Source: Vermamoeba vermiformis (taxonomy: Eukaryota). From it: 64,000 nt of DNA. Below the pieces are notes generated by a model. That model searched no databases. It was not told where the DNA came from and saw only the letters and a program-made list of their open reading frames with translations. The stretch spans positions 62,001-126,000 of the forward strand of contig JBEWZL010000270.1 of NCBI GenBank assembly GCA_045837725.1, read 5' to 3'. Numbering within the stretch: position 1 is the first letter of the stretch; every line of letters begins with the position of its first letter. Position numbers and translations under genes: made by a program. This document shows, piece by piece, positions 7,030 through 49,131 of this stretch.

Positions 7030-10000
7030 TTAGTTGAATATTTTTGAAGCGTTTAAAACCCATTGAGCAACGAGTTGCACTTCCATCTGATTTCTTTCGA
7101 ACAGATCATCTCCTGACATTAGAATCTCTTGATCATTCGTGTAAAAGATGTTAGGAGTAAGTACCTATTATTAAAATTAGTTAACTTCGTGCCATTACTT
7201 TAAAATATTGAGTTCACATTCCGGATTCCGTCTACCGAAATAGAATCCCTTTTCGCCCTCTAATATTCGCTAACTTACGGTCGATAATGGTACGGCACGC
7301 ATTCGGTTACGTTCTGCATTCTCTACAATCCTAAAATAAAAATTAGTCCTTTGTAACGGCTTTGGATCTCGGTCCAAATCAGTTTGGTCGGGTACCGCTA
7401 GTTTGCCCGTAATATTATTAACTATCACTTACTTTGATAATAGGTGGAATAATCGCGCGCAGGTTGCGTAGTTAACTTTCGGTAGCGATTTGAAGATCTC
7501 TCGGGATTGATTAATGAAATCATCAAGCTCCTTCAGTTCTATTATAGCAGTATTAATAAGCCATTATGATATCAAATGTTTAGTCAAGTTTTCGCTGGAT
7601 CAGCCAAGAAATGTAAATTTCGGCTGTGACTTACGATGAAGAGCATAGAGCTTATTGTACGCTTTGAATGTTAATAAAGGCTCTGGTAGCTCGCGTAGAA
7701 ATGACTTGAGAATAGCTACAACCGTATGCGGATCCAAAATACCAGCGAAGTTAACGTGACCTATCGTAATGTTAAATATCTATTCCGCTATGCTGTTGTG
7801 TGAGGTAATAGTTTCATATTTTTAATAATTCGCATGATTTATTGCGAATTTGAAACAGCCAGACCCAGATCGGTTTTTCGACCCGCATCTCGACAGCATC
7901 AGTAAACAAAAAATTAAATAGTACGCGACACGTCAAAACAAATGATCGTGCGCGATGAAATAAATATGCGTTGTTTTGTACAAATAAATTAAAATAAATG
8001 AAAAAAACTATCTACGAGTAAAATGGATGCAGTGGTTGGAGGTGCGGCCAAATGAATGGAAGCAGGCGAGTGAGGGTGAGGAGGGAGATAATAGGTCGGA
8101 GAGAGGGTGGTACTCGTCACGTAGCAGCCTTTACGACGAAGGATTGCTTGAGCTATCGTCTTTCGTCTCTTTGGGTTTCTCGTCAACGTGCTCGGGAGCA
8201 GAGATTGACACATTGACAGATGTCTCGATGACAGGTGTCACTGGAGCAACTTCAGTCTCTTTCTTGACTTCAGCTTGCTCGGGGATGTCATTGAGCATTG
8301 CCTCGAGGTTTTGCAGCTCAGTGCCGAGCTTCTCGCGACTAGCAGGTGTGTCAGGCTCACGGGGGCTAGTCTCTGCAGGGATGGTTGCGGAGGCACGAGG
8401 ACTGATAGACAAGTCCAACGTGTTCAGTTGATTCTCTAACTCGTCAAGTTTTGAACCAACAGACGACAACACACTTCGTGTTTGTTCCTCGATGTGCGTC
8501 TGGTTCTCGGCACGTGCTTTCTCGGTGGACTCGAGCTTGAGTTTCACCTCAGAGCCTGAGTTGCTCGTGGGAGCTTGGGACTTCTCTGAGGTAGACTCAG
8601 TGAGCTGAGGACGAGGGCTGTTGATTGAGGACTCGAGGTCGTTTGCTGGTTCAACGACCACAGCCTTCTTCTTGCGATTGAGAACCAAATCTCCTGAAGC
8701 TTCATCACGCGGTGAGGTCTTCTCGACTTCTTCTTTCTTGCGTGGAGTTTTGGGCTTCAGTTTTTGCAACCACTTGGGAGATTTCTTGCCCTTCTTCTCT
8801 TTCTCGTCGGATGAGCTCGAAGATTCTTCTTCAGCTCCAGCTTCGGCCTTCTTGTCCTTTTTCTTGGGCTCTTTTTCAGGTTTCTCTTTCTCTTTCTCTT
8901 TCTCTTTTTCAGCAGGCTTTTTCTTGCTTTCTTTCTCAGCCTTCTTGCGCTCTTTTTCTTCGCGCTCTTTCTCCTCTTTCTCTTTCTTCTTGGCCTCTTT
9001 TTCAGCCTTTTTCTTAGCGCTTTCCTCTTTCTCTTTGCGCGCTTTTTCCTCCTTCTCGCGCTTCTTTTTCTCTTTTTCTTTGTCGTCCTCGCCGCTCAAG
9101 GCCAGTGGAGAGACTGTGCCCTGCTTTTCGGCCTTGACCTCCACCTTTGGGCTCGCAACCTCAACCTTGGCCTCGCCTTCTTTAGGTGCTTCGGGTTCCT
9201 TAACGGTGACTTCAGCAACTTCCTTGACTTCGTGAGCAGGCTCGACCTTGGCTTCAACATTAACTTCAGGTTCCTTCTCCGCAGCCTTGACCTCTGCTGT
9301 GGGAACTTCAACAACAGGCTCGTGTGCCTTTTCAGACTTCGATGATGAAGACGAGGAGCTTGAGCGAGATCGATTCTTAGTTTCGACCTCGACTTCAGCC
9401 TCGGGCTTCTTTTCTTCAACGGACTTGGTTTCAGTCTCGACTTTGACTTCCACCTCGACCTTCTTTTCCTCGCCTGACTTGTGCTCAACTTCAGCTGCAG
9501 GGACTGTCGCAACAGCGGCAGCAGCCTCGGGAGTTGAACCGGCCCTACTTTCGAATTAGTCATCTGGTTGTGAAGAAATGGTAAAGTAACTTACGGCAAG
9601 TTGACAGACATGTGCGCGTCAACAGGCTTGTACTCGTACTTGACGACTGACTCCGAGGAGCTAGACTCTTCTTTCTTGTCCTTGTCTTTCGTGGACTTCT
9701 TGAGCTCTTTCTTGTGGTCTTCGCCCGACTTGCTCTCAGGAGGCGTGGACTCGTCTTTCTTTTTCTTGTCCTTCTTCTCGTGCTTCTTGGCTTCTTTTTC
9801 AGCGGCCTCAGCCTCCTTCTTTTTCTTCTTCTCGAGCTCTTTGCGCTCCTTTTCAAGACGCTTTTCTTCGTCTTTCTTCTCTTTCTCGAGCTTCTTCTGC
9901 TCGTGGTCAACTTTCTTCTCTTTGTCTTTCTTCTCGTGCTTCTTGTCGTCTTTTTCAGCCGTACTGCTAGCTTCAGTTTTGTCTTCTTTCTTTTCAACTT

Positions 10001-12245
10001 TGTCTTTCTTTTCAGCACGGAACGACAACTTTTTGATGAAGCTCTTGAAGCGTGGCGAAGTAGCCGCGTGCTTCTTTTTCGCGCCTTCTTCATGCGGCTC
10101 TTCAACGGACTTTTCGGCCTTCTTGCTCGGAGTATCGGGCAAGGGCTGGGTGTTGATAGGGTGATTCGAATCCGCTATGCCGACCGAAATCGTGTGCGCG
10201 CGTTCAAGACGACGTGCTTGGCGCAAATCCTCTTGGCTAGTCTTTTTAACCATCAGACTGCCAGCGCTACGTTGACGAACTGGATCCTTCTTGCCATCTT
10301 TCTCCTTCTCCTCCTTTTTACTCTTCTTCTCCTCCTCACTCGAACTGCTCGATTCATCGGGCTTTTTCTCCGCTACGACCTCTGGCGAGGAAGTAGTTTC
10401 GTCGGCTGTAATATGACGAAGTGTTGCATCAATACCTCGGTAGATACAAGGTGCAATCGTTAAAACAATTAAAACGAAGTAAAAATAAATTTCTAGGAAC
10501 TCATCGAAGAATGAAACGAGCACTTACCGGTCTCCGCGATCTCTCCTTTGAGCTTATCGACCTCTTTCTTGCTCGCTGAAATTCTGAAAATGCCTTCTTC
10601 TTCCAATCCTACACATAATACGCCGTTAGCAAAATTAAAAATAAAATCATTTGTTTCATGGCCAGATGCGCCAAGAAAGATCTTTCTTTCTCAATTAAAT
10701 TAGCGTTACGTGACGTACCTTTGCTTTCAATATACTCGACAGCTTTATCAACAATAGCAGGGACGTCGGATCCATCCTTATTAGCGACTTGTTCAATGTC
10801 CTTGCCGAACGGATCGTTCTCGGGCTTGGCGATGTTGACCTCACTAGCAGGAGTACCTTTGTCGGACTTCTTCTTGTCGCCAATGCCAAAGCTGCTCTTA
10901 ATATTCTTCAGTCTGAGGGTACCAAACTTCTTCTCTGGCGGAGCTGCTGCTGCGGCCGCCTCGATCTGCTTCGCGATCGATGAGCCATGCAATTGCTCTC
11001 GTTGCTAAGAATAAGTGGTATCGTTAGTAAATGCCGTATTATAATATTTTTTAGCCACCGCCTTACCAATTCAATATAGTTCTTGTATTCTTCGATCTCG
11101 GGGATCAAAGTCACCATAAATCTGTTGCTGTTCACAAAGAAGTCTCGATACAGTTCCATATAATGCACCAATGAGCCTAACATCTCAGCTTCACTCAGTG
11201 CAATGGTATCTTGAAGCTTATCGACTGTTTCCATGCCGACTTGAGAGAAGTTCTTTCGCAGCTCTTCGACCTCGAGTTCAACCTGCGCAAATCCAGTTAA
11301 TACACGTGCAAATGGTAGGAGGCTCAAGTGAGTATCACTCATATAAATTTCATTTGGATTGAACCACGTCTAACTTACCTCTTTAATTTTTTCTTCCTTG
11401 GCCTTCTTGCCCAATCCGTTCAACTTCGAAATGCCAGCATCAAGCTCGACTCTAGCCTTCTCGAACTTGCTCTTTTGCATCTATATAATCGAATCAGATC
11501 ATAAATTCTCGTGTGACATATCGGGTAAGGCTCGATCGCGTGATCGGCTCGTGTTCCGTAAATCTGGCTTGAAAAACTTACCTTAGCTTCCTTGACGTCA
11601 ACTTCGATGACATTGTCGAGTGGTTCGTACACTTCCGAGACGATTTGCTTTCCCTATTAAAGTAATTGATTATTTTGTAACGGTCATATTTTTTTGCATG
11701 CGATCGAGAAACTTACCAACTTGGAGCGCAAATCATCGACGTGTCTTTGTACTTCAGCTACTTTATCTAAACTACCAGCTGCCCGAAAAAGAAACGTTAT
11801 TCATTGCAAGAATTAATGATCGGCATTGAGTAAATTTACCAAGCATGTATCGCAGAGGATCCTCGCGAAAACTGACGCCTCCGTCGACCAAAGAATCGCT
11901 GAGTTCGGCACCGGCCTCGAGCAAGGCTAAATAAATAGAGGGAGTGAGTTTCTTGTTATCGATTGAATGATCGGTCGAAATCTTTTTGTGAATTAATTTA
12001 AATATGGTCTCCATTAGATACTTGATTTTTATAAAAACTATGATCCACAACGAATGTAAATACGTACTCGACGTGGTCTTTTCTTGTTTGTGTATCTCCC
12101 TAGTAATTTTCTTGATCTGATTCGTCATAACCTCCAGTTTGGTAGATAATTCAGGCTCTTCAGGATAGGTCGTTACTTGTTCGGCAACGCCGATTTTTTC
12201 CTTCAATTTTTGATTGAAGATTTGAAAAGCTGATTGTTTGGCCAT
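7030..12245 (-). CDS. BAR-domain plus RhoGAP protein (SH3BP1/ARHGAP17-like architecture)
   Basis: Helical BAR-like N-terminus (QKLKEKIGVAEQVTTY..); RhoGAP motifs PFGKDI..VPAIVDKAVEYIESKGLEEEGIFRIS, then after intron 7761-10527 DPHTVVAILKSFLRELPEPLLT, LPKVNYAT, NAERNRM, LTPNIF. Confidence 0.85.
8131..10405 (-). CDS. Two in-frame exons (10405-9595, 9544-8131) encoding about 740 aa of Lys/Glu/Ser-rich low-complexity sequence inside the RhoGAP intron; alternative terminal exons or a nested gene
   Basis: Long stop-free ORFs joined in frame by a canonical 50-bp GTAAGT..TAG intron; CAG acceptor ending at 10406 is phase-compatible with the RhoGAP donor at 10527. Confidence 0.7.
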
Positions 12246-28983: not shown

Positions 28984-31900
28984 ATGACAGGACTGCCTTC
29001 GTCTACAAGGTAGTTATCATGTTTAAGATATTTACTAAGCTTCAATAATCTAACTTTGTTTAGATTTCGAACGCGACATCTGCACACGGCCAAGTCCTTG
29101 TTTTCTCCATCCAAAAAGAGTTCAATTGGAAGTGTAGAACCGATTGTGAATAGAGCAAGCACCGATACAAATATCCAATTACACAAAGACAATACACCAG
29201 CACCCACCCTACTCGATATCTCTATTCCTCTTCAGGAACGGCTTTCACAAATTGTTCGCAATGTACTCCGTGATGAAGTGAAGGTTGATTTTGCCGCTGA
29301 GCAACAAAAACTTGAAGAAATGCAGAGGCAACAATTTGGAAAATTCCTCAAAAAGCCATTCGTTTTCAATCCAACACCTCCTATGGGACGACAATTTGAC
29401 TTACGCTTCATGCCAAAGCATTTTAACGACCAAGTCTATGAGCAATTTGAACAGTGGGCAGTTGACCCTGTTTACCGTATTCATGCTTTGCGAGCAATTC
29501 CTGGTGCTGGAAAGACAGGTAAGTAACTTGATGTAGTGTACCTTAACTAATTGTAATCTAGCTGTCATGTTGAATGCTGTGGGAAGGAATACTTATCTTA
29601 TTTATGTGATGTGTGATCAGCATGAAATAGTATCTACTGATTATGTAAGTAATTTACCTTATTATAAACCTCATTAAATACTAATACTTCTTCAGAGAGA
29701 CTCCAGCTTTGTTGCATTTTTAACTTCTGGAGCAATGCAGGGAGCTATTGCAGAGAGTGATATTAAAAAGAGTACTGAAAGAATTATAGAGCTTTTACAA
29801 CTATTTTGGCTTGCTCGTCTCATGACATTGGATTATGTAAAACAAACATTTAACTATACTCCAGTTGAATGGCTTTACTGGTCTAACAATGCTGGCCAAG
29901 AAAAAATTGCTAGAATTCAAGAACAATTTTTATCATTAAAGTAAGATAGCACTGAAAATTTCTTTATGTACTAATTTGCAGCCTGCACAGAGGGTACCCA
30001 GGTGTAAACTCAGGGAGAGCTTTAACTTCCTGGGCGGAACGTTGAGCGGGGGTGTTGAGCGGGGACAATAATTTCTCCGTTTTTTTTGGCAGCCTCGCAA
30101 TAAATCGTCCCGCAATATTACTTTTAAATAATGAATAAAAATCAACACACAATGGCATATATTTTAATTATATGCTCGGTTGTGTTAGTTGATTCGCGCG
30201 CGCTTTTCGATTAAAATTCAAAACCGTTTTTTTGGTCATTGAATCGTTTTTCTCCATCAACGCACCACAAATGGCTGACCCAGAACCGGCGAAAGCATTG
30301 TCTGTAAGTGTTCGCACATTTTTAATCGGAGACTTTTTGTAACAATGGTCTTTATTCTTATAAAATACCAATTTTTCGTTTTTTCGAATCCGAATCTAAC
30401 ATGTTCTAAAAAAGGAAGGAAATAACGCTACCAGGAAGCGGAAACGAGGACGGAAAGAAACCAAAGGCCAGAAGAGGCGTCGTATTGTGTAAGTTGAATA
30501 TCAAAAGTGAAATTAAACCAGTTCTAATATTTAAAACAGTCAGGGTCAAACGGAGGAGGCTAAAAAAGACGGATGGGCTCTTTTAGAGCCCTTTCCTCTC
30601 CGCTATCGACAAACTGTGGTGCCCTCAATGTTGGCCTTTGCCCCAAATCAGCCTTTGTCTGCATTGGATTGCTTTAAGAAGCTCTGGACGCCTAAGTTTC
30701 ATGACGAATGGATGGAGGCTGTCAGCCAACACGTGACACTTCCTCATTCTGGATTTTCCGCTTCAAAGCGAGCAGTTAGTGGGTGGAATTACCTTGGCTT
30801 TCATCTACAATGCAAGACCAACCCCTTGGCTAACCTGAAAGCCTACTGGAAAGCAGACTTGGACCTACCAAGCCAAGATTTGGTTCTTCAGATCCATTCT
30901 GAACGAGACGCCTTAGATCAGTTTTATATGGCCAGCCTATTAAGCAACAACTACTGTGATGCTGTCACTGCAGGCTCTCACATCACTATTGATGAAATTG
31001 TGGCCCCTTCCTCCTTGGACTGTCCAGCTGTTACAACAATCATTCGAAAGCCTCATCCACACGGTGTTCTCATCTGGGCCTCAGGGGTCAAACTTGAGGG
31101 TATAACCCCATATGTGTTAAGGCTAGTGCCCAAAACTGCAGATATACACTCTTGGAGCACTGGTGCCATTGTCAAGGAGCTGATAGAGCCAATGAATAGC
31201 AACTTGAAGCGGAATTATACGATGGATGCTTGGTTTGACAGTGAGGCAGTGCGTGCATACATCACAAGAGCCGGCCAGTTCTTCACCTTAGGAGCTCATA
31301 CAGGCCATAACAAAAGCTTTTGGGATCAAGCTAAGGACGGCATCACCCCTTCCACATGGAAGCAATATGAAAATGCCTCTTCTAGCCTGCTGGCATCAGT
31401 GTTTTACGACAAAGGTGTGCATTGTTGCATTAGCTCAGCCTACCGAAAAGTCAACAAAATTAACCAAAAGCTTCAGCGGTGCCCGTTATCTGATATGTAT
31501 AAGAAGCACTTCAATGTGATTGACTTATTTAATCGGAACTTTTATCAGAATATGATTAAGCATCGACAAATGACTGTCGGTAAGGTTGTCTTTGATGCCT
31601 TGCTTCAGATAACCATCTTGAATGCAAGGGTGTTATACAACCATACTCACAATCAAAAGCCCATATCTGCCTTTGATTATATGTGCCAACTAAAGAAGGA
31701 GCTATTGGAAGTGAAGTGATACTTGTATTGTATCATTATATAATAAAATTCGACATTCTTTCAAAACCGGCTCAAGGGACCGGCTCAACATTCCGCCCAG
31801 GAAGTTAATTGATCAACTGATAAACAAGCACAAAGTTTGGATTGCAGTTGATGAAGCTCAAGTTGCTGGAGCACTATACAGTAACAAGATTATACAAAGA

Positions 31901-41343: not shown

Positions 41344-42564
41344 TTAACCCCAGCCGTAGAAAGTTTGATTGTTACCCAACAAGTGTGCGTGGCAATCTCT
41401 CGCAGCTCTGTCGCAGTTAGTCATCCACTGGTGCATGATCGTAGCGTTCCAACCGTTCCACCAATCAGCGTGATAGGAATAACCGCCGACTTCGCTCTCG
41501 CTGTACATATCCGACGACAATCGCCAGTACAATGGTGCGTCCTTCTCCTTGACGGGCCAGTTGATGTTGATCGTGATGACCGGGATCGCGACTGGATGCG
41601 TTGGCGGACATCTGCCGTAGTAAGGCCAGGCCATGTGACTCTTGTGATCAGGGCTGTCGAGATTGACACCGTCCCAGCACTGCGGGAAATCAATGCCAGC
41701 GTGAAGATAGTCGCCCACATCGCAATTGATCACGTGATTTGTTCGACCGTAAGTGGTACCATCAGCGCGTTGACATTCAAAAAGGCCTTCAGCTTGGTCC
41801 ACTGACATGGCCTTAGCGTTGCCAGAGATCATGCGAAGTCCGTGCGGCGGATCTTGCACCCATTGTGGCGCAATGCCGAGGTAACCAGTCTTGTAGTAGA
41901 AGATCGATGTTTTCGCCATCAGCGGAGTTCCATCACGCGTGTCGACCAGCGGAGCGACCCAATAGCCACTTCTATTCATGATACCACCAGGGCACGTCGA
42001 GTCACCGCTAGTAGTTAATGATTCGGTATTAGAATTGGCGTTGGTTCCTTTGTTGCCGAAAAACATGTGCAGATGCGATGCGCCAGGCTGACCAGGGAAC
42101 ACCACAGGATCGTCGAAGAGCATGTGGCTATAGTCGCATGAAATTCTGAAGGAGCCAATGTTGTCATCCGGAACTGCAGGCTCCTCATCCGTCGCGCGAA
42201 TGCGAAGATCAGAAAAACCGACATTGCCAGGAGGAATCTTAGTGACGTCAATAAGCGGTCCTCCGTTCTGGGGCTTAGTAGGAACAGTTGAAGTGTTCTT
42301 CGGGGTGAATAATTGGCATTCAGTCACTTTGAACGGGCCGTACCATCCGAAGTAGTCCCAGCTGCAGGTTCCGTAAGCAGTGTCTTGGAAATTTCGCCAG
42401 TTAGTGCCATCGCCATATCTAATTATTCTAAAGCCAGGCAACGGAAGCGTATATTGTTCGCCTTCTCCTGCGATCTTCGTCCAGGTGCCTTCAGGTAGTG
42501 TAAAAACACAAAACGCGCTTGAAACAAGCAACGCCAATGCAAATAATACTAAATTTACTTTCAT
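41344..42564 (-). CDS. Secreted DUF1996-domain protein, copy 1, intronless
   Basis: Signal peptide; FRISC..SHMLFDDPVVFPGQPGASHLHMFFGN, NRSGYW, FPQCWDGVNLDSPDHKSHM, CPPTHPVAIP, HADWWNGW. Confidence 0.88.
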   Translation of the reverse strand: MKVNLVLFALALLVSSAFCVFTLPEGTWTKIAGEGEQYTLPLPGFRIIRYGDGTNWRNFQDTAYGTCSWDYFGWYGPFKVTECQLFTPKNTSTVPTKPQNGGPLIDVTKIPPGNVGFSDLRIRATDEEPAVPDDNIGSFRISCDYSHMLFDDPVVFPGQPGASHLHMFFGNKGTNANSNTESLTTSGDSTCPGGIMNRSGYWVAPLVDTRDGTPLMAKTSIFYYKTGYLGIAPQWVQDPPHGLRMISGNAKAMSVDQAEGLFECQRADGTTYGRTNHVINCDVGDYLHAGIDFPQCWDGVNLDSPDHKSHMAWPYYGRCPPTHPVAIPVITININWPVKEKDAPLYWRLSSDMYSESEVGGYSYHADWWNGWNATIMHQWMTNCDRAARDCHAHLLGNNQTFYGWG

Positions 42565-43074
42565 GGCTTGTTTAAAGTTACTGAAAAATAATTACACTAC
42601 CGATTTTAGCTTTTATTTTAGTTTACGAGATTTTTGTGATCCAAAAGACTCGTCACATCCAAAACAAATGTGATCAAAATGTCACGTATAATGTACAAGA
42701 TAGATAGTAATCTAGCTATCTAACTCGCATATAATCAATCGCTGACTTACTATTATTTGACACTAACCAATGATTCAAATTCGTAGCCCGAGCTGAATTT
42801 TCATTGGATCCGTTAAAATCCAGGCAGCGCACATTGAACCGATAAACTAGGCGCTTAATACAGCGAGTCAGATCGAACGTATTGCTTTGCCTAGTCATTG
42901 AGTAAGTTTCAGAAGTTGTCCCATTGTACACATCCAGCAGTATTAGTGAATTCGGATGTGACGACTGAGTTGTCACAATTGACCAATAAGATTTGACGAG
43001 TGGACGAAAAGCAAATTTAAATTATTTTGGTTAATTGAATCATTGTTAAGATATCAAATCGTAATCAAGCCACG

Positions 43075-43983: not shown

Positions 43984-45174
43984 TTAATAGAACATCTGAT
44001 TGTTGCCCAACAAGTGCGCGTGACAATCAGCCGGAGCTCTGTCGCAGTTCTCCATCCACTGGTGCATAATTGTCGCGTTCCAACCGTTCCACCAATCAGC
44101 GTGGAAAGAATAACCGCCCGGCTGACTTTCATCGTACATATCTGATGACAATCTCCAGTGCAATGGCGCGTCTTGTTCTTTCACCGCCCAGTTGATGTTG
44201 ATCGTGATGACTGGTATCGCGACTGGATGTGTTGGCGGACATTTGCCGTTGACAGGGAACGACATGTGGCTCTTGTGATCAGGGCTGTCGAGATTGACGC
44301 CGTCCCAGCACTGCGGAAAATCAATGCTCGCGTGCAATCGTTGCCCGACCGCGCAATTGATCACGCGATTGGTCCTGTTGTACCCGCCCGCATCGTCTTG
44401 ACACTCCCAAGTACCCAAGCCGTCAGTCGATGCCATGGCCTTAGCATTGCCAGAGATCATGCGGAGTCCGTGTGGCGGATCTTGCACCCATTTCGCGGAA
44501 ATTCCGTAGTAGCCCGTCTTGTAGTAGAAGATCGAGGACTGCGACATTAAAGGCGTTCCATCGCGTGTATCAATAATAGGTGCGACCCAATAGCCACTTC
44601 TATTCATGATACCGCCAGGGCACGACGAGTCGCCACTAGTAGTTAATGATTCGGTATTCGAGTTGGCATCTGTTCCGGTATTGCCAAAGAACATGTGCAG
44701 ATGCGACTCGCCAGGCTGACCAGGGAAGACAATAGGGTCATCGAAGAGCATATGGCTATATCCACATGAAATTCTAAATGCTCCAACACCATCTCCTGAA
44801 GGTGCAGGTTGCTCATCGGTATGCTGGATGCGAAGATCAGAATAGCCGCCATTGCCAGGAGGAATCTTAGTGACGTCAATAAGTGGTCCTCCATTTTTAG
44901 GCTTAGTGGGGACGGACGTGTCCGTTGGGGTGAACATCTGGCATTCATTTGGCGCAGGTGAACTATACCATACAAAATACGTTCTGCTGCACGTTCCATA
45001 CGCTGAATCTTGCAAGTATCGCCAGTTGGTGCCATCACCAAATCTAATTACTCTAAAGCCAGGCAATGGAAGCGTATAGTTTTCATTTTCGCTCGCGATC
45101 TTCGTCCACGTACCAGCGGGCAAACTATAGGCGCTAGAAACAAGCAATAAAAATACAATTATTAAATTGTTCAT
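43984..45174 (-). CDS. Secreted DUF1996-domain protein, copy 2, intronless
   Basis: Paralog of 41344-42564 with the same motifs; start MNNLIIVFLLL. Confidence 0.88.
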   Translation of the reverse strand: MNNLIIVFLLLVSSAYSLPAGTWTKIASENENYTLPLPGFRVIRFGDGTNWRYLQDSAYGTCSRTYFVWYSSPAPNECQMFTPTDTSVPTKPKNGGPLIDVTKIPPGNGGYSDLRIQHTDEQPAPSGDGVGAFRISCGYSHMLFDDPIVFPGQPGESHLHMFFGNTGTDANSNTESLTTSGDSSCPGGIMNRSGYWVAPIIDTRDGTPLMSQSSIFYYKTGYYGISAKWVQDPPHGLRMISGNAKAMASTDGLGTWECQDDAGGYNRTNRVINCAVGQRLHASIDFPQCWDGVNLDSPDHKSHMSFPVNGKCPPTHPVAIPVITININWAVKEQDAPLHWRLSSDMYDESQPGGYSFHADWWNGWNATIMHQWMENCDRAPADCHAHLLGNNQMFY

Positions 45175-45682
45175 TTGTTGTCGCCGTGTGTTGAACGGAA
45201 ATAAATAAAATTGCAATAAAAATCTCTCAGTAGATTTTCTGACCCTGGAAAAGCTATGTAATGCAGGACAAATAGCGAATCTCGTTGCAATACTCGAAAT
45301 AATGCGTAGGTACTACGAAAGATGACGATTTTGATCACCTTTCTCTTTAGAAAGGTTGATTCAGTTAAGTAAGGCTAAGCTTGATTTTCTCCGCTCTGCC
45401 TCGTGCTTTTAGTCTGAAACTAATAGAATATGCGTCATACATAGTAATCTACCGGAAGGCATTCAAAATGCGCTTAAAAGAAGCGTTTAAACGATACTTA
45501 CAGACTTTACCGCTCCGTACAAGCATAACGAAATGTTCTCATGGAAAGAAGAGGTTATACTGCGTCTAGTCAAGTTATATGGACCCTATTTAAGAAGGAG
45601 AATCAGTCTCGGTCGACGTGACTTTAAAGTTTGATTCTGGCCAAATTTAGTATTATTCTACTTCAACTTGAAAGCGAACACC

Positions 45683-46288
45683 ATGCGAGCTATATTATTA
45701 TTTTTGATATTTGTATTTGTTACCTTCGCTTATGCAGCGACAAAGACTTGCCAACCCACATCTGGCGTAGCGAACTCACTTTGCGGCAACGAAACTCACA
45801 ACGCTTACGTAATCCCTGCTAAAGTCTGTGCATATGGTCCTGTTGATGTATCAGCTACTTCATGCGTGGCACAAGTGTTCAATACCTGGCAGTTGGTCTG
45901 TCCGAAACGAAACAAAGATCTGACGAGCTTTTGTCAAGGCTGGGGTGGTTTTGAAAATATTGATTATTCCTCACCTTGTTGGGTACTTCAAGAGTGCACC
46001 AGCGACGACGACTGCAATGTAGTCACTCCTCCAGCGGCCGCATCGGCATCTAAAAAATGCTACGAGTGCTGCGAGTTGTGCTATGACGACTGTGCATCCA
46101 GAGTTGGCGATGAATATGCAGCACAAGGTGATACTAATTGCACACCTTGTCCGTACACAGCGACTCCTCACACTTTGCCGCCAATCCCGACCACAACTCC
46201 TGGTGGAACGAAGTTATCAACTGGATGGAGTATTTTACCATTGGCTATTACTTTCTTAATTATGGTGATGGTTGCTGTATTTATATAA
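45683..46288 (+). CDS. Cys-rich secreted, probably GPI-anchored protein, copy 2
   Basis: Paralog of 43075-43743 with a near-identical core; start MRAILLF. Confidence 0.8.
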   Translation: MRAILLFLIFVFVTFAYAATKTCQPTSGVANSLCGNETHNAYVIPAKVCAYGPVDVSATSCVAQVFNTWQLVCPKRNKDLTSFCQGWGGFENIDYSSPCWVLQECTSDDDCNVVTPPAAASASKKCYECCELCYDDCASRVGDEYAAQGDTNCTPCPYTATPHTLPPIPTTTPGGTKLSTGWSILPLAITFLIMVMVAVFI

Positions 46289-46532
46289 ATTAGTTTGTTG
46301 GAGAACCAAATCGAATCTGATTTTGTTGGTTTCAAAAATAGCTAAAAAAAAGGCTTTGCTGCCCACGATAATGAAGAATTCGGTGCACTAAACGTATTCT
46401 TTACTATCCTGGCTTTTTTCTTGTGGTATTTTGTTTGGGTGCAAAATCGGGACTAAACGCCTAAATTGGAAATTTCTTAATGACACATTTTAGCAAGCTC
46501 CGTAATAACAATCAACATTTGAATCAGCTATC

Positions 46533-49131
46533 ATGGAGAACACTAAGGTCCCTATACAAAAGCTGCACGTTCGAAATATTTTTCAATTATTCGTCCCGAT
46601 CAGCTCGAATATTAAATACGACGTTGCTTTAACGACAACACCAAGTTTTGGATTTACATTGACGCAACAAAATGCACCAGAATTTTGTTACCATTATCAA
46701 ATACAATTATTTGCAAATGACAAAAATATGAAAGGCGAGATTGTGGAAACGGAAGCGGTGGATTGTTTCAGTTGGGCCAAAAGAAATCCATTTATTATTC
46801 AACCGAACCACGAGGAAGCTGGCATTACATTACGAATGAAAATAGACCACGGAACATTTGATTTTCGCAAGATCAAAAAGCGTCCGATCAAGATCTACGT
46901 AACCTGCTTCAGCGCTGGCGTCTTCTTGCAACGAGGCTCCACCAAAATATGCAAATTATTACCGAAGAAGCGCCATGCAGAGTATTCTAACGTAGATTCT
47001 GAAGGTAAAGCAACAACAGTAAACGTCAGAATCAATCCGGAAACATTTCAATTTACGCGGTCAAACATATGAATTGTCTCGCCATATAATTCAATAGCCT
47101 TATTAAACCTATTTTACGGAATTAATCCTCGTTTAAATCAACTCTAACGAAAACTTTTTTTTAGTGTTGATCCCGGTGTCTTGGAATAACACCAATCTCG
47201 CTCTAGTTCATCCTACTAAAATAGAACCTGCACATGACAGTTCATATTCTGACCGCAGAACGTCCGAAGACAATTCTTCGCCGGATGTAGGCGATAACGA
47301 CGCGGAGTCAAATTCCATGCAGATCATGAACAGCTACGACGTCGATATGTCGCCGAGTTACGAGCAAGAACAACACCCTATTCACCCGCCAGTAGTCTTC
47401 AATAGCCACCTTCAAATGCACATGCGGTAAGTGATTTGTGGATTCGGAGCCGCAGTACGGATTTCGGTCTTAAACTTCATAAGCTTTTCCGTAATTGAAT
47501 AAGTTACTCATTAGTCATATTACTATATTATAGCGATTTCGAAAATGAGCCTTACATGCTATTGGTCAATGGCAACGCGGAAGTCGTCGGAAATTTTCGA
47601 GCGCTCAACTTTTACAAGGCTTCAGATATCAATATAAAAGAAGATATTAGGCTCTTATGCGAAGGTAATCATTTTGCGAATTTAGTCTCGCGGTAGTACA
47701 TTTCGGAACGTTATGTCGAAGTTGCAATCATTGACATTTTTTTTGACACTTTGACACTTTTAGATCGAGATCCGAGAGAAGCACTGCTGAAGATTGACGG
47801 AGTCGAGTACAAGTTCAGGAGTGGTGTAGGACATACTACGAACAAACGCTTCGTCGGTTACATCGCCCAACAGATTGAAAGTATTGTGCCTGAAGCCGTT
47901 CAATTGATTGACGGTAAGTTTTTTTTTTACCTAATTCAATTGAAGAAAGTACTTTCTTACGGAAATATTTATTTGTTGCGCAATTTAAGTAATTCAATTA
48001 ATTAATTATAATTTAGGGATTTTGCACGTTGATTACGAGTCGCTGATCCCGTACTTGAGCGAATCTGTCAAACAGAATTTTAACGATATTAAGAACGTTA
48101 AATCCGAAACCGAACGAATTCAAAAAATCGTCGATTTATTATACGCAGAATTTTTGAAGAAAAGCAAGATTGAAGAGAAGATCAATGGATCAACATCCAA
48201 AACACCATCAGTTACCGAGAAGATGCCATTTTTTGGCAAGAAGTCATTGTTATACTCCATAATCGCCGTAACATTGGTTATCGGAGCCGCAATTGGCATA
48301 TTTTTGGCGATAACGTTCAGTACATCCGGAGACCCATCCGATGATAAGCCGACAGCTACCGTTCCGTTGTATCAGTTCGGAGGTCTAGACCCTAGCAATG
48401 ATATTCCTGAAGAGCGACAAGCGTTAATTGATTTATTTATGGCGACTAATGGCTCGAATTGGAAATTGAAAGCAGGCTGGCTCAAAAATACCTCGTACTG
48501 CTCGTGGTACGGAGTCTATTGCGGCGATGATCGAAAAGTGATTTCGCTGCGATTTGATAACAACAATTTAGAAGGCACCATTCCCGAGTCAATCGTTGCT
48601 CTAGATTCGCTCATCACTTTCGAAATCCGAAACAATTCGAAATTGACTGGAACACTTCCAAAGGCTATTTCTGAATGGAGAAAGCTCGGCACATTCGATG
48701 TATCCAACAATCAACTGAGCGGACAGCTGCCGAGGATGAATAGCGAAGAATTAATGGATTTTGTTGTCAGCAACAACAGATTTGACGGAACCATTCCGCT
48801 GATCAAAGCAATTAATTTCAATACTATCGCACTGGACAACAATCAACTCACTGGAAGTATTTACAATCTGAAGGACCTCAACTTCGTCGCGAAATTTCTG
48901 ATCAACAACAACAAACTGACCGGCGATCTAATGTTATCGAAGAACTTTTTGCTCTCAGTAGATACATTCGACGTCTCTAACAATCAGTTCACCTCGACTG
49001 TTGAAATTGCTAGGCTCCCTGCCCCACAAACGGCGATCAATTTCAAAAGATGCAACGTATCTAGCAATATTTGGGATTGCCCTATTCCTTCGTGGATGCG
49101 AGAATTCTGCGACGGAAATTGTACAGTATAA
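46533..49131 (+). CDS. MYRF-like membrane protein: beta-rich N-domain, peptidase S74/ICA autocleavage domain, coiled coil, TM helix, C-terminal LRR ectodomain; 5 exons
   Basis: Exons 46533-47004, 47165-47426, 47534-47664, 47764-47912, 48017-49131 join in frame; VNGNAEVVG..YKASDINIKEDI, GYIAQQIESIVPEAV, LHVDYESLIPYL; TM LLYSIIAVTLVIGAAIGIFLAI; LRR cap ERQALIDLF..W..W..CSWYGVYC and N.L.G.IP repeats. Confidence 0.82.

What the first reader, a model, noticed from the sequence alone, without database searches (positions are those of the whole stretch)
46533..49131. Candidate one-component receptor/transcription factor: self-cleaving MYRF-type ICA domain fused to an LRR ectodomain
Seen: five exons splice in frame to give a beta-rich N-domain ending in basic KLLPKKR, a disordered linker, an intramolecular chaperone domain with its Ser-Asp-x-x-x-Lys signature intact (A-S-D-I-N-I-K; Ser at 47622-47624, Lys at 47637-47639; G.IAQ..PEAV; VDY), a coiled coil, one TM helix, then a plant-receptor-type LRR cap with N.L.G.IP repeats and a Cys C-cap. 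Established: animal MYRF and Dictyostelium MrfA use this phage-tailspike-related ICA domain to trimerise, self-cleave and release an N-terminal DNA-binding trimer from the membrane; their luminal ends are not LRRs. Inference: ligand binding to the LRR could gate release of a nuclear factor, for example in prey or pathogen sensing. The N-domain is not obviously NDT80-like, so it may be a different DNA-binding fold.
Basis: partly seen in the sequence, partly recalled or inferred. Interest (0 to 1): 0.9.

Follow-up and report, generated by a model that had tools for sequence, protein, structure and literature searches.

The report
Amoebal LRR receptor with self-cleaving tether
An amoeba gene, one of a large undescribed family, joins an outward-facing leucine-rich-repeat sensor to a phage-type self-cutting domain and a new basic domain inside the cell, which suggests a one-protein route from cell surface to nucleus.

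Summary
Window 46533-49131 (+) is one five-exon gene of 709 aa. Spliced contigs of a near-identical organism show all four GT..AG introns, and so does a full-length Vermamoeba vermiformis transcript protein (P0121). Order: a basic all-beta N-domain; an acidic linker; a beta-helix stalk; a Peptidase_S74/ICA domain with Ser275 and Lys280 intact; one TM helix; and a plant-type LRR ectodomain with Cys caps.

The gene belongs to a family. Twenty-nine metagenome loci carry 31 copies, in at least 22 distinct nucleotide versions. Every copy with enough flanking DNA has all three parts. The stalk and cleavage site are almost invariant in protein although third codon positions have diverged. The N-domain and LRR share only about 30-36% identity between paralogs.

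Best reading: a MYRF-like self-cleaving membrane-tethered factor with a new N-domain and a fused LRR sensor. Cleavage, nuclear entry, DNA binding and ligand gating are inferred, not shown. My literature searches found no description of it.

The parts
46533..47004 (+). Exon 1: start codon and the whole N-domain (residues 1-157; conserved core about 9-150)
   Evidence: Model. The family start Met and residues 9-150 are conserved in 46 relatives. AlphaFold model pLDDT 93.3, all-beta. pI 9.54. No Pfam family.
46962..46973 (+). P-K-K-R (residues 144-147), basic NLS-like motif directly after the last strand of the N-domain
   Evidence: Family consensus is LLPKKR. Its role as an NLS is inferred from the recalled K-K/R-x-K/R pattern and was not tested.
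47005..47164 (+). Intron 1 (160 nt, GT..AG)
   Evidence: X1 contig joint 47002>47163, cut +2. P0121 crosses the junction.
47165..47426 (+). Exon 2: acidic, Ser-rich linker (residues about 158-245)
   Evidence: For residues 151-250: pI 4.39, D+E 18 against K+R 4. Identity is 85% to P0121 and 29% to P0172. Disorder and any activation function are inferred.
47427..47533 (+). Intron 2 (107 nt, GT..AG)
   Evidence: X1 joint 47425>47533, cut +1.
47534..47664 (+). Exon 3: beta-helix stalk and cleavage site (YMLLVNGNAEVVGNFRALNFYKA|SDINIKE)
   Evidence: Aligned to the catalytic Ser/Lys region of a T5-type tail fibre (6f45) and MYRF (7dc3). Near-invariant in 30 of 30 family copies.
47622..47639 (+). 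Ser275 (47622-47624) to Lys280 (47637-47639): the Ser-x4-Lys catalytic dyad. The predicted scissile bond is Ala274|Ser275.
   Evidence: The dyad mechanism is from PMC3828593 and PMC8326128 (passages).
47665..47763 (+). Intron 3 (99 nt, GT..AG)
   Evidence: X1 joint 47662>47762, cut +2.
47764..47913 (+). Exon 4: core of the ICA domain (G-Y-I-A-Q-Q-I-E-S-I-V-P-E-A-V)
   Evidence: PF13884 Peptidase_S74, E 3.9e-8, 33.9 bits (cut-off 22), profile positions 17-57 of 58.
47914..48016 (+). Intron 4 (103 nt, GT..AG)
   Evidence: X1 contig plus 7, 11 and 4 raw RNA reads in X18, X19 and X20.
48017..48246 (+).
   Evidence: The alignment to 6f45 runs through this helix. The helix lies in the predicted trimer interface. 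MYRF's C-terminal ICA coiled coil drives trimerisation (PMC8326128 abstract).
48247..48324 (+). Single transmembrane helix (residues 416-441)
   Evidence: Kyte-Doolittle 19-residue peak of 2.67. It is the only stretch above 1.6. K-K precedes it and an acidic stretch follows.
48325..49128 (+). Ectodomain: LRRNT_2 Cys cap (48406-48522), plant-type LRRs, and a four-Cys C-terminal cap (49051-49122)
   Evidence: Pfam LRR_1 and LRRNT_2 pass their cut-offs. For P0121 the best PDB sequence matches are plant LRR receptor kinases: GSO1 4e-61, PEPR1, FLS2. Five of the eight N-x-S/T sequons lie here.
49129..49131 (+). Stop codon TAA
   Evidence: An X1 contig runs 44 nt past it (table 8).

Best explanation
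The gene encodes a type-II single-pass membrane protein that most likely works like MYRF/MrfA.

Three chains assemble through the short beta-helix stalk, the S74/ICA domain and its C-terminal helix. The Ser275-Lys280 dyad then cuts the chain before Ser275. This frees a trimer of the N-terminal 274 residues: a basic Ig-like domain, PKKR, an acidic linker and the stalk. The ICA, TM helix and LRR ectodomain stay in the membrane.

The freed fragment most likely enters the nucleus and binds DNA. The C-terminal plant-type LRR faces the outside or the lumen, and most likely binds a ligand or partner that controls where or when assembly and cutting take place.

Shown here: one transcript; the domain order; the intact dyad; a family-wide fixed architecture; strong purifying selection on the stalk and cleavage site.

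Inferred: cleavage, trimerisation in the cell, nuclear entry, DNA binding, and any ligand control.
For: One mRNA: all four joints appear in spliced contigs, and there are two independent full-length transcript proteins with the same order of parts, P0121 and the 36%-identical paralog P0172.

S74/ICA: Pfam matches are above cut-off. Ser and Lys align with the catalytic residues region of MYRF 7dc3 and tail fibre 6f45.

Family architecture: S-D-x3-K is kept in 30 of 30 copies. Among 31 copies in 29 loci, 25 of 25 with at least 650 nt upstream have the N-domain. Sixteen of 16 with at least 1,700 nt downstream have the LRR ectodomain, and 15 of these reach the Cys cap.

Selection: the 25-aa stalk/cleavage segment occurs in 23 nucleotide versions. 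Amino-acid identity is 0.94, codon positions 1+2 are 0.96 identical, and position 3 is only 0.56 identical. That pattern indicates selection rather than gene conversion.

Trimer: a three-copy model of P0121 176-345 scores ipSAE 0.90 against a best control of 0.00. The mark was reached by 21 of 30 proteins solved as pairs of one chain and 0 of 23 solved as single chains. The runs agree in at least 91% of contacts and pLDDT is at least 81. The interface covers the stalk, the cleavage site and the helix. Like complexes are solved, so the pass may be from memory.

Topology: a single TM helix, no signal peptide, and sequons and Cys caps on the C-terminal side.
Against: No experiment supports any step.

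The language-model lead to P53/CP2 (0.85 and 0.84, below the 0.9 bar) was not repeated with paralog P0147, which gave the ceramidase C-terminal domain at 0.78.

Phmmer E-values of the ICA segment against solved structures are weak (0.012 and 0.023).

MrfA is cleaved constitutively in the ER (PMC3828593), so an ectodomain need not gate anything.

The family loci were fished with patterns that overlap the stalk. Members with a diverged stalk would therefore have been missed.
Confidence: 0.55

Rival explanations
1. The architecture and self-cleavage are the same, but the released N-terminal trimer is not a DNA-binding factor. The Ig-like sandwich binds a protein, lipid or RNA and acts as a cytosolic signalling effector or adaptor.
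For: The N-domain matches no DNA-binding family by sequence. Generic beta-sandwiches (S-layer, transglutaminase N-domain, T6SS effector NTD, ZP-C) score within about 1-2 Z units of EBF1. The p53/CP2 lead did not repeat.
Against: The family-wide basic pI (42 of 44 above 8), the adjacent acidic linker and the conserved PKKR are the usual make-up of a transcription factor. EBF1 DBD is the top match for two models whose sequences are 30% identical. The only characterised eukaryotic proteins with this ICA-then-TM layout that I found are transcription factors (PMC3742443, PMC3828593).
Confidence: 0.22
2. The ICA acts mainly as a folding and trimerisation chaperone for a trimeric LRR surface protein (adhesin or receptor). 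Cleavage is constitutive during biogenesis. The N-terminal piece is a by-product or a cytosolic regulator, and no information passes from LRR to nucleus.
For: In phages the domain is a chaperone that is cut off after assembly, and MrfA cleavage is constitutive (PMC3828593 passages). The ectodomain is the fastest-changing part between close relatives: 66% identity against 94-96% for the cytosolic domains.
Against: The N-domain is present in 25 of 25 copies with enough upstream DNA. It is 96% identical between the window gene and P0121, so it is not a disposable piece. The ICA lies on the opposite side of the membrane from the LRR, so it cannot chaperone the LRR fold directly.
Confidence: 0.15
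3. Gene-model artefact or pseudogene: the N-domain, ICA and LRR parts belong to separate genes or are not expressed.
For: None was found. The only oddity is that the ORF call of P0121 starts at the equivalent of Met65.
Against: Spliced contigs and RNA reads show all four joints between the exons. Two full-length transcript ORFs have the same order of parts. The reading frame is intact. Residues 9-65 are conserved across the family. RNA reads of the relative cover 46508-46715.
Confidence: 0.02

Closest known systems
MYRF (animals) and MrfA (Dictyostelium): membrane-tethered transcription factors released by an S74/ICA domain
   Same: The layout is a cytosolic N-terminal beta-sandwich domain, then a stalk, then an ICA with a Ser-x4-Lys dyad (SDINIK here, SDLRIK in MrfA), then a single TM helix, in type-II topology. 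Like MrfA it has a long flexible linker between the N-domain and the stalk (PMC8326128 figure legend). A C-terminal ICA helix is predicted to sit in the trimer interface.
C. elegans PAN-1 with MYRF
   Same: An LRR ectodomain is functionally coupled to an ICA-cleaved membrane factor. PAN-1, an LRR-TM protein, binds MYRF through the extracellular regions and is needed for MYRF's cell-surface localisation and nuclear release (PMC8099431 abstract).
   Different: There the LRR is a separate protein acting in trans. Here the LRR is fused in cis to the ICA-bearing chain. No sequence relation between the two LRR domains was tested.
NDT80 + 'Chaperone of endosialidase' + TM proteins of four Amoebozoa species, noted in a 2025 preprint (10.64898/2025.12.20.695554)
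   Same: [quoted passage not shown]
   Different: They were found through their NDT80 domain, and no LRR is mentioned. The family here has another N-domain. Their identities may be in a figure or supplement that I could not see.
Phage and giant-virus fibres and tailspikes with a C-terminal S74 chaperone (endoNF, T5-type tail fibre 6f45)
   Same: They share the stalk, the Ser-Lys cleavage site, the G-x-I-A-Q-E-V-x-x-x-L-P motif and the terminal helix (alignment).
   Different: In fibres the domain is C-terminal and is discarded. Here it is internal, membrane-anchored, and is the retained part.
Plant LRR receptor-like proteins and kinases
   Same: They share the LRRNT_2 Cys cap and 24-residue L-x-x-L-x-L-x-x-N-x-L-x-G-x-I-P repeats. 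The best solved sequence matches for P0121 are GSO1, PEPR1 and FLS2.
   Different: There is no kinase and no signal peptide. The LRR lies C-terminal to the TM helix (type II rather than type I). The output module is a self-cleaving tether.
EBF1/COE DNA-binding domain
   Same: It is the best structural match of both N-domain models, covering 124-128 of about 155 residues.

Membership tests
Peptidase_S74 / ICA (CIMCD) domain | Profile match above the curated cut-off | tested here: met
   Exon 4 alone scores 33.9 bits against 22. Spliced relatives P0121 (44.2 bits, profile 1-57 of 58) and P0172 (43.2 bits) also match.
Peptidase_S74 / ICA (CIMCD) domain | Catalytic Ser and Lys five residues apart, aligned with those of characterised members | tested here: met
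   In one search, A-S-D-I-N-L-K of P0121 (A-S-D-I-N-I-K in the window) aligns with S-S-D-R-R-I-K of 6f45 and with the dyad position of MYRF 7dc3. The dyad is kept in 30 of 30 family copies.
Peptidase_S74 / ICA (CIMCD) domain | Homotrimer formed by the stalk, ICA and C-terminal helix | tested here: met
   This is a prediction only. Score 0.90 against a best control of 0.00; runs agree in at least 91% of contacts; pLDDT at least 81. Like complexes are solved, so the pass may be from memory. It was done on P0121, which is 94% identical to the window protein in this region.
Peptidase_S74 / ICA (CIMCD) domain | Autoproteolysis N-terminal to the Ser | not testable with these tools
   This needs tagged expression with Ser275Ala and Lys280Ala controls.
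MYRF/MrfA family | NDT80/PhoG-type DNA-binding domain N-terminal to the ICA (sequence level) | tested here: not met
   There is no NDT80_PhoG hit at E <= 1 for the window N-domain or for any of the 47 family sequences.
MYRF/MrfA family | NDT80-like fold of the N-domain | tested here: inconclusive
MYRF/MrfA family | ICA followed by a single TM helix, with the N-terminus in the cytosol | tested here: met
   A single hydrophobic span lies at 416-441, there is no N-terminal signal, and K-K sits on the N-side. The topology is predicted, not measured.
MYRF/MrfA family | MRF_C1 / MRF_C2 domains | tested here: not met
   Neither appears among the Pfam hits of the exons, P0121 or P0172 at E <= 0.1-1.
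Plant-type LRR ectodomain (LRRNT_2 + LRR) | N-terminal Cys-pair cap and LRR profile matches | tested here: met
   In the window, LRRNT_2 scores 23.6 against 20.7 and LRR_1 scores 27.1 against 20.6. P0172's LRRNT_2 is below cut-off (15.2) and P0121's is not listed. PDB matches are plant LRR-RLK ectodomains.
Plant LRR receptor kinases / receptor-like proteins | Signal peptide, type-I topology, and a cytosolic kinase or short tail | tested here: not met
   There is no N-terminal hydrophobic segment. The LRR is C-terminal to the TM helix. No kinase domain is found.
EBF/COE DNA-binding domain | Profile match, and a zinc knuckle (motif recalled) | tested here: not met
   No COE-type Pfam hit appears in 47 sequences. 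The four Cys are at 52, 78, 125 and 140, without a clustered H/C motif.
EBF/COE DNA-binding domain | Shared fold | tested here: inconclusive

The most novel reading that the evidence does not exclude
Vermamoeba-type amoebae carry a repertoire of at least 20 'receptor-transcription factors'. Each pairs its own LRR sensor with its own DNA-binding N-domain. Ligand-driven trimerisation at the surface triggers ICA self-cleavage and sends the N-trimer to the nucleus. Because the stalk, cleavage site and ICA are almost invariant between paralogs that share only about 30% identity elsewhere, paralogs may also form mixed trimers, which would give combinatorial sensing and output. This would be a one-protein innate recognition pathway for prey, pathogens or giant viruses.
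Probability: 0.15. Interest if true: 0.92.

Novelty: new variant of a known kind. Interest (0 to 1): 0.78.

Why it matters
The ICA-released membrane transcription factors described in the papers I read all carry an NDT80 domain, and what controls their cleavage is a live question (TMEM98 and PAN-1 in animals). Here the same self-cutting tether is joined to a different, uncatalogued basic beta-sandwich and, in one chain, to a plant-type LRR ectodomain, and the whole has expanded into a family.

If the N-fragment is a transcription factor, this is a direct surface-to-nucleus receptor in a protist. It would also be a natural cis-fusion counterpart of the PAN-1/MYRF pair. It would give a tractable system for asking whether ectodomain engagement gates ICA cleavage.

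It also defines a new conserved domain, with 46 relatives and a confident model, that current annotation misses. Vermamoeba feeds on bacteria and hosts intracellular bacteria and giant viruses, so a diversified LRR sensor family there is of ecological interest.

Tried and rejected
- The whole-genome search for paralogs was not possible, because no genome is held for this window.
- The first homolog search, with exon 5, was swamped by generic LRR proteins. None of the 120 listed carried PF13884. That was a wasted search, not evidence of absence.
- The search for related loci with the N-domain alignment A1 failed for lack of a conserved 7-10 column stretch. It was repeated with A2.
- Foldseek against the PDB gave only weak Ig-like matches: best E 1.4e-3, TM 0.2-0.35.
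- ESM Atlas gave P53/CP2 at 0.85 and 0.84 for the window N-domain, but the ceramidase C-terminal domain at 0.78 for paralog P0147. I treat it as an unrepeated lead.
- Four of the 50 hits in the representative search (P0139, P0158, P0165, P0168) are repeat proteins matched in 8-12 short stretches. I dropped them as false after inspecting them.
- A tblastn of P0121 against the whole window found no second copy. There were only weak hits (E 0.037 and 0.18) of the low-complexity linker to the two DUF1996 genes.
- Three family copies with 1,027-1,201 nt downstream of the ICA (L019, L022, L027) gave no ectodomain hit at E <= 1e-4. Too little DNA, introns or a different ectodomain cannot be told apart.
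- Earlier-findings look-ups returned nothing for this genome or this sequence. A word search returned only prokaryotic, phage and giant-virus S74 cases.
- Literature searches found no paper describing an S74/ICA domain fused to LRRs, or this N-domain. The library covers CC-licensed PMC and bioRxiv only.
- Gene conversion as the cause of the invariant stalk was rejected, because third codon positions are only 56% identical.
Full report
THE GENE

The finding's coordinates hold one gene on the + strand. Exons 46533-47004, 47165-47426, 47534-47664, 47764-47913 and 48017-49131 join in frame to give 709 codons and a TAA stop. The four introns are 160, 107, 99 and 103 nt, and all are GT..AG. The window is 39.6% G+C, has short introns, and no whole genome is held for it.

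Three kinds of evidence show that this is a single transcript.

- Contigs of run X1, 95-99% identical to the window, are spliced at exactly these four introns. One 832-nt contig runs from exon 2 through exons 3 and 4 to 48393, past the membrane helix and into the ectodomain. Another runs 44 nt beyond the stop. The run's RNA label is the tool's guess. The spliced contigs are what suggest RNA.
- Three raw RNA-seq runs of an organism with the same species label lay on the gene at 90-95% identity. These reads therefore come from a relative or a sister copy. They show the fourth joint in 7, 11 and 4 reads. Loose ends at 47004 continue into an exon-2-like sequence.
- A Trinity transcript protein that its EukProt accession assigns to Vermamoeba vermiformis (P0121, 644 aa) is collinear with residues 66-709 of the model. 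It shares 513 of 646 identities with 4 gaps and crosses all four junctions.

The window therefore comes from an amoebozoan close to Vermamoeba.

P0121's ORF call begins at the equivalent of Met65. However, residues 9-65 are conserved throughout the family, most family ORFs start with Met two residues before the K-L-H-V-R-N motif, and reads of the relative cover that stretch. I take 46533 as the start.

THE PARTS

Pfam finds Peptidase_S74 on exon 4 alone (33.9 bits, cut-off 22, profile positions 17-57 of 58). It finds LRR_1 and LRRNT_2 on exon 5, both above cut-off. On the spliced relatives the S74 match is full length: P0121 E 2.4e-11, P0172 E 4.8e-11.

In a search of PDB sequences with the corresponding P0121 segment, this Ser-x4-Lys aligns with S-S-D-R-R-I-K of a T5-type tail fibre (6f45). 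It also aligns with the dyad position of MYRF (7dc3). The G-Y-I-A-Q-Q-I-E-S-I-V-P-E-A-V motif aligns as well.

That helix corresponds to the C-terminal coiled coil of the ICA domain. In MYRF this coiled coil is the main driver of trimerisation, and cleavage happens only in the trimer (PMC8326128, abstract and passages).

A three-copy model of P0121 176-345 scored 0.90 against a best control of 0.00. The mark was reached by 21 of 30 proteins solved as pairs of one chain and 0 of 23 solved as single chains. Contact agreement was at least 91% and pLDDT at least 81. The stalk, the cleavage site and the helix lie in the interface. Trimers of this domain are solved, so this pass may be from memory. 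It shows likeness, not that this protein trimerises.

Other features of the chain:

- Residues 416-441 are the only hydrophobic span (Kyte-Doolittle peak 2.67).
- There is no N-terminal signal.
- K-K precedes the span and an acidic stretch follows it.
- Five of the eight N-x-S/T sequons and 7 of the 11 Cys lie C-terminal to it.

The predicted topology is therefore type II, with the LRR outside or in the lumen, as in MYRF.

The ectodomain is of the plant type. It has an LRRNT_2 cap and repeats of the N-x-L-x-G-x-I-P kind. For P0121 the best solved sequence matches are GSO1 (4e-61), PEPR1 and FLS2. It ends in a four-Cys cap that is conserved in P0121 and P0172.

THE N-DOMAIN

Exon 1 has no Pfam match. 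A HMMER search of 1.84 billion cluster representatives gave 50 hits at E <= 1e-3, of which 38 were at <= 1e-10. Four are repeat proteins hit in 8-12 short stretches, and I dropped them.

The other 46 are mostly 130-325-aa ORFs that cover residues 9-150. Many end shortly after a D-S-E-G or similar stretch, where exon 1 ends here. They look like exon-1 ORFs called on unannotated eukaryotic contigs. F-D-F-R is nearly invariant, and W-A-K-R-x-P and L-L-P-K-K-R are consensus motifs. None of the 47 sequences hits any DNA-binding Pfam family.

With this alignment AlphaFold gave a confident all-beta model: pLDDT 93.3, pTM 0.84. A second model, of the 30%-identical member P0147, gave pLDDT 91.7.

Foldseek found nothing at E <= 1e-3. 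The exhaustive VIA search gave the same order of matches for both models:

| Match | Window model | P0147 model |
|---|---|---|

Below these came a mix in which Ig-fold transcription factors recur: CP2c 5.7, RBPJ 5.4-5.7, VosA/VeA 5.1-5.9, CEP-1/p53 5.2-5.8, Ndt80 5.0-5.4, MYRF DBD 5.2-5.7.

The ESM Atlas lead to P53 and CP2 (0.85 and 0.84) was below the bar, and it was not repeated with P0147.

Composition points the same way as the architecture. The N-domain has pI 9.54, the family median is 9.69, and 42 of 44 members are above 8. The following 100 residues have pI 4.39 and are Ser-rich. That is the usual pairing of a DNA-binding domain with an acidic region.

THE FAMILY

A profile search for longer proteins found a second full-length Vermamoeba transcript protein, P0172 (765 aa). 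It has the same order of parts: N-domain, linker, S74, TM helix, LRR and C-cap. Its identity to the window protein, and that of P0121, by region:

| Region | P0172 | P0121 |
|---|---|---|
| N-domain | 36% | 96% |
| Linker | 29% | 85% |
| Stalk, ICA and helix | 73% | 94% |
| Ectodomain | 33% | 66% |

Between near relatives the sensor side changes fastest.

A scan of metagenome contigs with two stalk patterns returned 29 loci, from 190 pattern matches. They hold 31 ICA copies, with two loci carrying tandem genes.

- All 25 copies with at least 650 nt upstream have the N-domain. The 6 without it have at most 455 nt before the contig end.
- All 16 copies with at least 1,700 nt downstream have the LRR ectodomain, and 15 of them reach the Cys cap.
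- Three copies with about 1.0-1.2 kb downstream gave no ectodomain hit, and these remain open.
- S-D-x3-K is kept in 30 of 30 aligned copies.

The 25-residue stalk/cleavage segment exists in 23 nucleotide versions, counting the window. Over 253 pairs, mean amino-acid identity is 0.94, codon positions 1+2 are 0.96 identical, and position 3 is 0.56 identical. The invariance therefore reflects purifying selection rather than recent copying.

The scan patterns overlap the first half of this segment, so that half is partly circular. The A-L-N-F-Y-K-A-S-D-x-x-x-K-E half is not.

There is a check that is independent of those patterns. P0150 was found only through its N-domain. It ends in a string that equals the +1-frame reading of this same segment, with an 11-residue exact match to four loci.

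Some loci are the same gene from different assemblies. The 22 nucleotide versions in the loci are my count of distinct genes.

HOW IT MOST LIKELY WORKS

By analogy with MYRF and MrfA, the chain inserts with its N-terminus in the cytosol. Three chains assemble through the ICA, its helix and the stalk, and the Ser-Lys dyad cuts before Ser275. A trimer of residues 1-274 is freed, while the ICA-TM-LRR part stays in the membrane.

In MrfA and MYRF this mechanism, the need for the Ser and the Lys, and nuclear entry of the N-fragment are experimentally established (PMC3828593, PMC3742443 and PMC8326128, passages). Here only the sequence prerequisites are shown.

That the freed fragment binds DNA is my preferred reading, at about 55% for the whole chain of inference. 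The main rival is a non-DNA effector role.

Whether the LRR gates release is open. MrfA is cut constitutively. In C. elegans, however, the separate LRR-TM protein PAN-1 binds MYRF's extracellular region and is required for its surface localisation and nuclear release (PMC8099431 abstract). The family here has that coupling built into one chain. Because cleavage needs a trimer, ligand-driven clustering of ectodomains is a plausible trigger. This is inference.

The near-invariance of the assembly module across paralogs that differ in both end domains is unexplained by function within one homotrimer alone. Mixed trimers or a shared regulator are possibilities.

COMPARISON AND NOVELTY

The protein is a member of the S74/ICA domain family. 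It is not a member of the MYRF family: it has no NDT80 domain by sequence and no MRF_C1 or MRF_C2 domain. It works like MYRF as far as sequence can tell.

A 2025 preprint lists amoebozoan NDT80 + S74 + TM proteins but no LRR and no other N-domain (passages; its figure and supplement were not seen). My four literature searches found no description of an ICA-LRR fusion or of this N-domain. The only full-length database proteins found are two unnamed transcriptome ORFs.

I rate it a new variant of a known kind. It is well supported as an architecture and a family, with its function inferred.

Noticed in passing
window 41347-42591 (-) and 43987-45312 (-): Two long ORFs, 415 and 442 aa, each with a full DUF1996 domain (E about 1e-43). 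They lie 1.4 kb apart on the minus strand just upstream of the gene and look like a tandem pair of paralogs. Their low-complexity N-terminal parts gave weak tblastn hits to the linker of P0121 (E 0.037 and 0.18).
   Followed up: partly
window 30538-31719 (+): A 393-aa ORF with a weak match to the C-terminal end of the piggyBac-type transposase family DDE_Tnp_1_7 (26.5 bits against 22.4). It may be a transposon remnant or a domesticated copy.
   Followed up: no
window 8001-10523: A composition outlier: G+C 0.50 against about 0.38-0.40 elsewhere, and AT skew -0.39. It carries long overlapping ORFs on both strands (for example 8131-9555 and 9591-10523 on the minus strand) that have no Pfam match. 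It looks like simple or repeated sequence, or an unusual gene.
   Followed up: no
window 45635-46288 (+): The immediate upstream neighbour encodes a small protein with a hydrophobic N-terminus, many Cys, a Thr/Pro stretch and a hydrophobic C-terminus. It looks like a surface-anchored Cys-rich protein. It has no Pfam match.
   Followed up: partly
L011 4497-8053 and L010 456-3424: Two metagenome contigs carry two family genes head to tail, so the family expands at least partly by tandem duplication.
   Followed up: partly
P0121 (transcript protein) against window 46533-46727: The relative's ORF call starts at the equivalent of Met65 and lacks the first third of the N-domain, although RNA reads of the relative cover that stretch. 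This may be an assembly or ORF-calling artefact, or an alternative start.
   Followed up: partly
window 47534-47664 and L001-L029: The intron right after R-L-L-x-E (the exon 3/4 boundary) and the one after D-S-E (the exon 1/2 boundary) appear to sit at the same places in many paralogs, judged from read-through translations.
   Followed up: no
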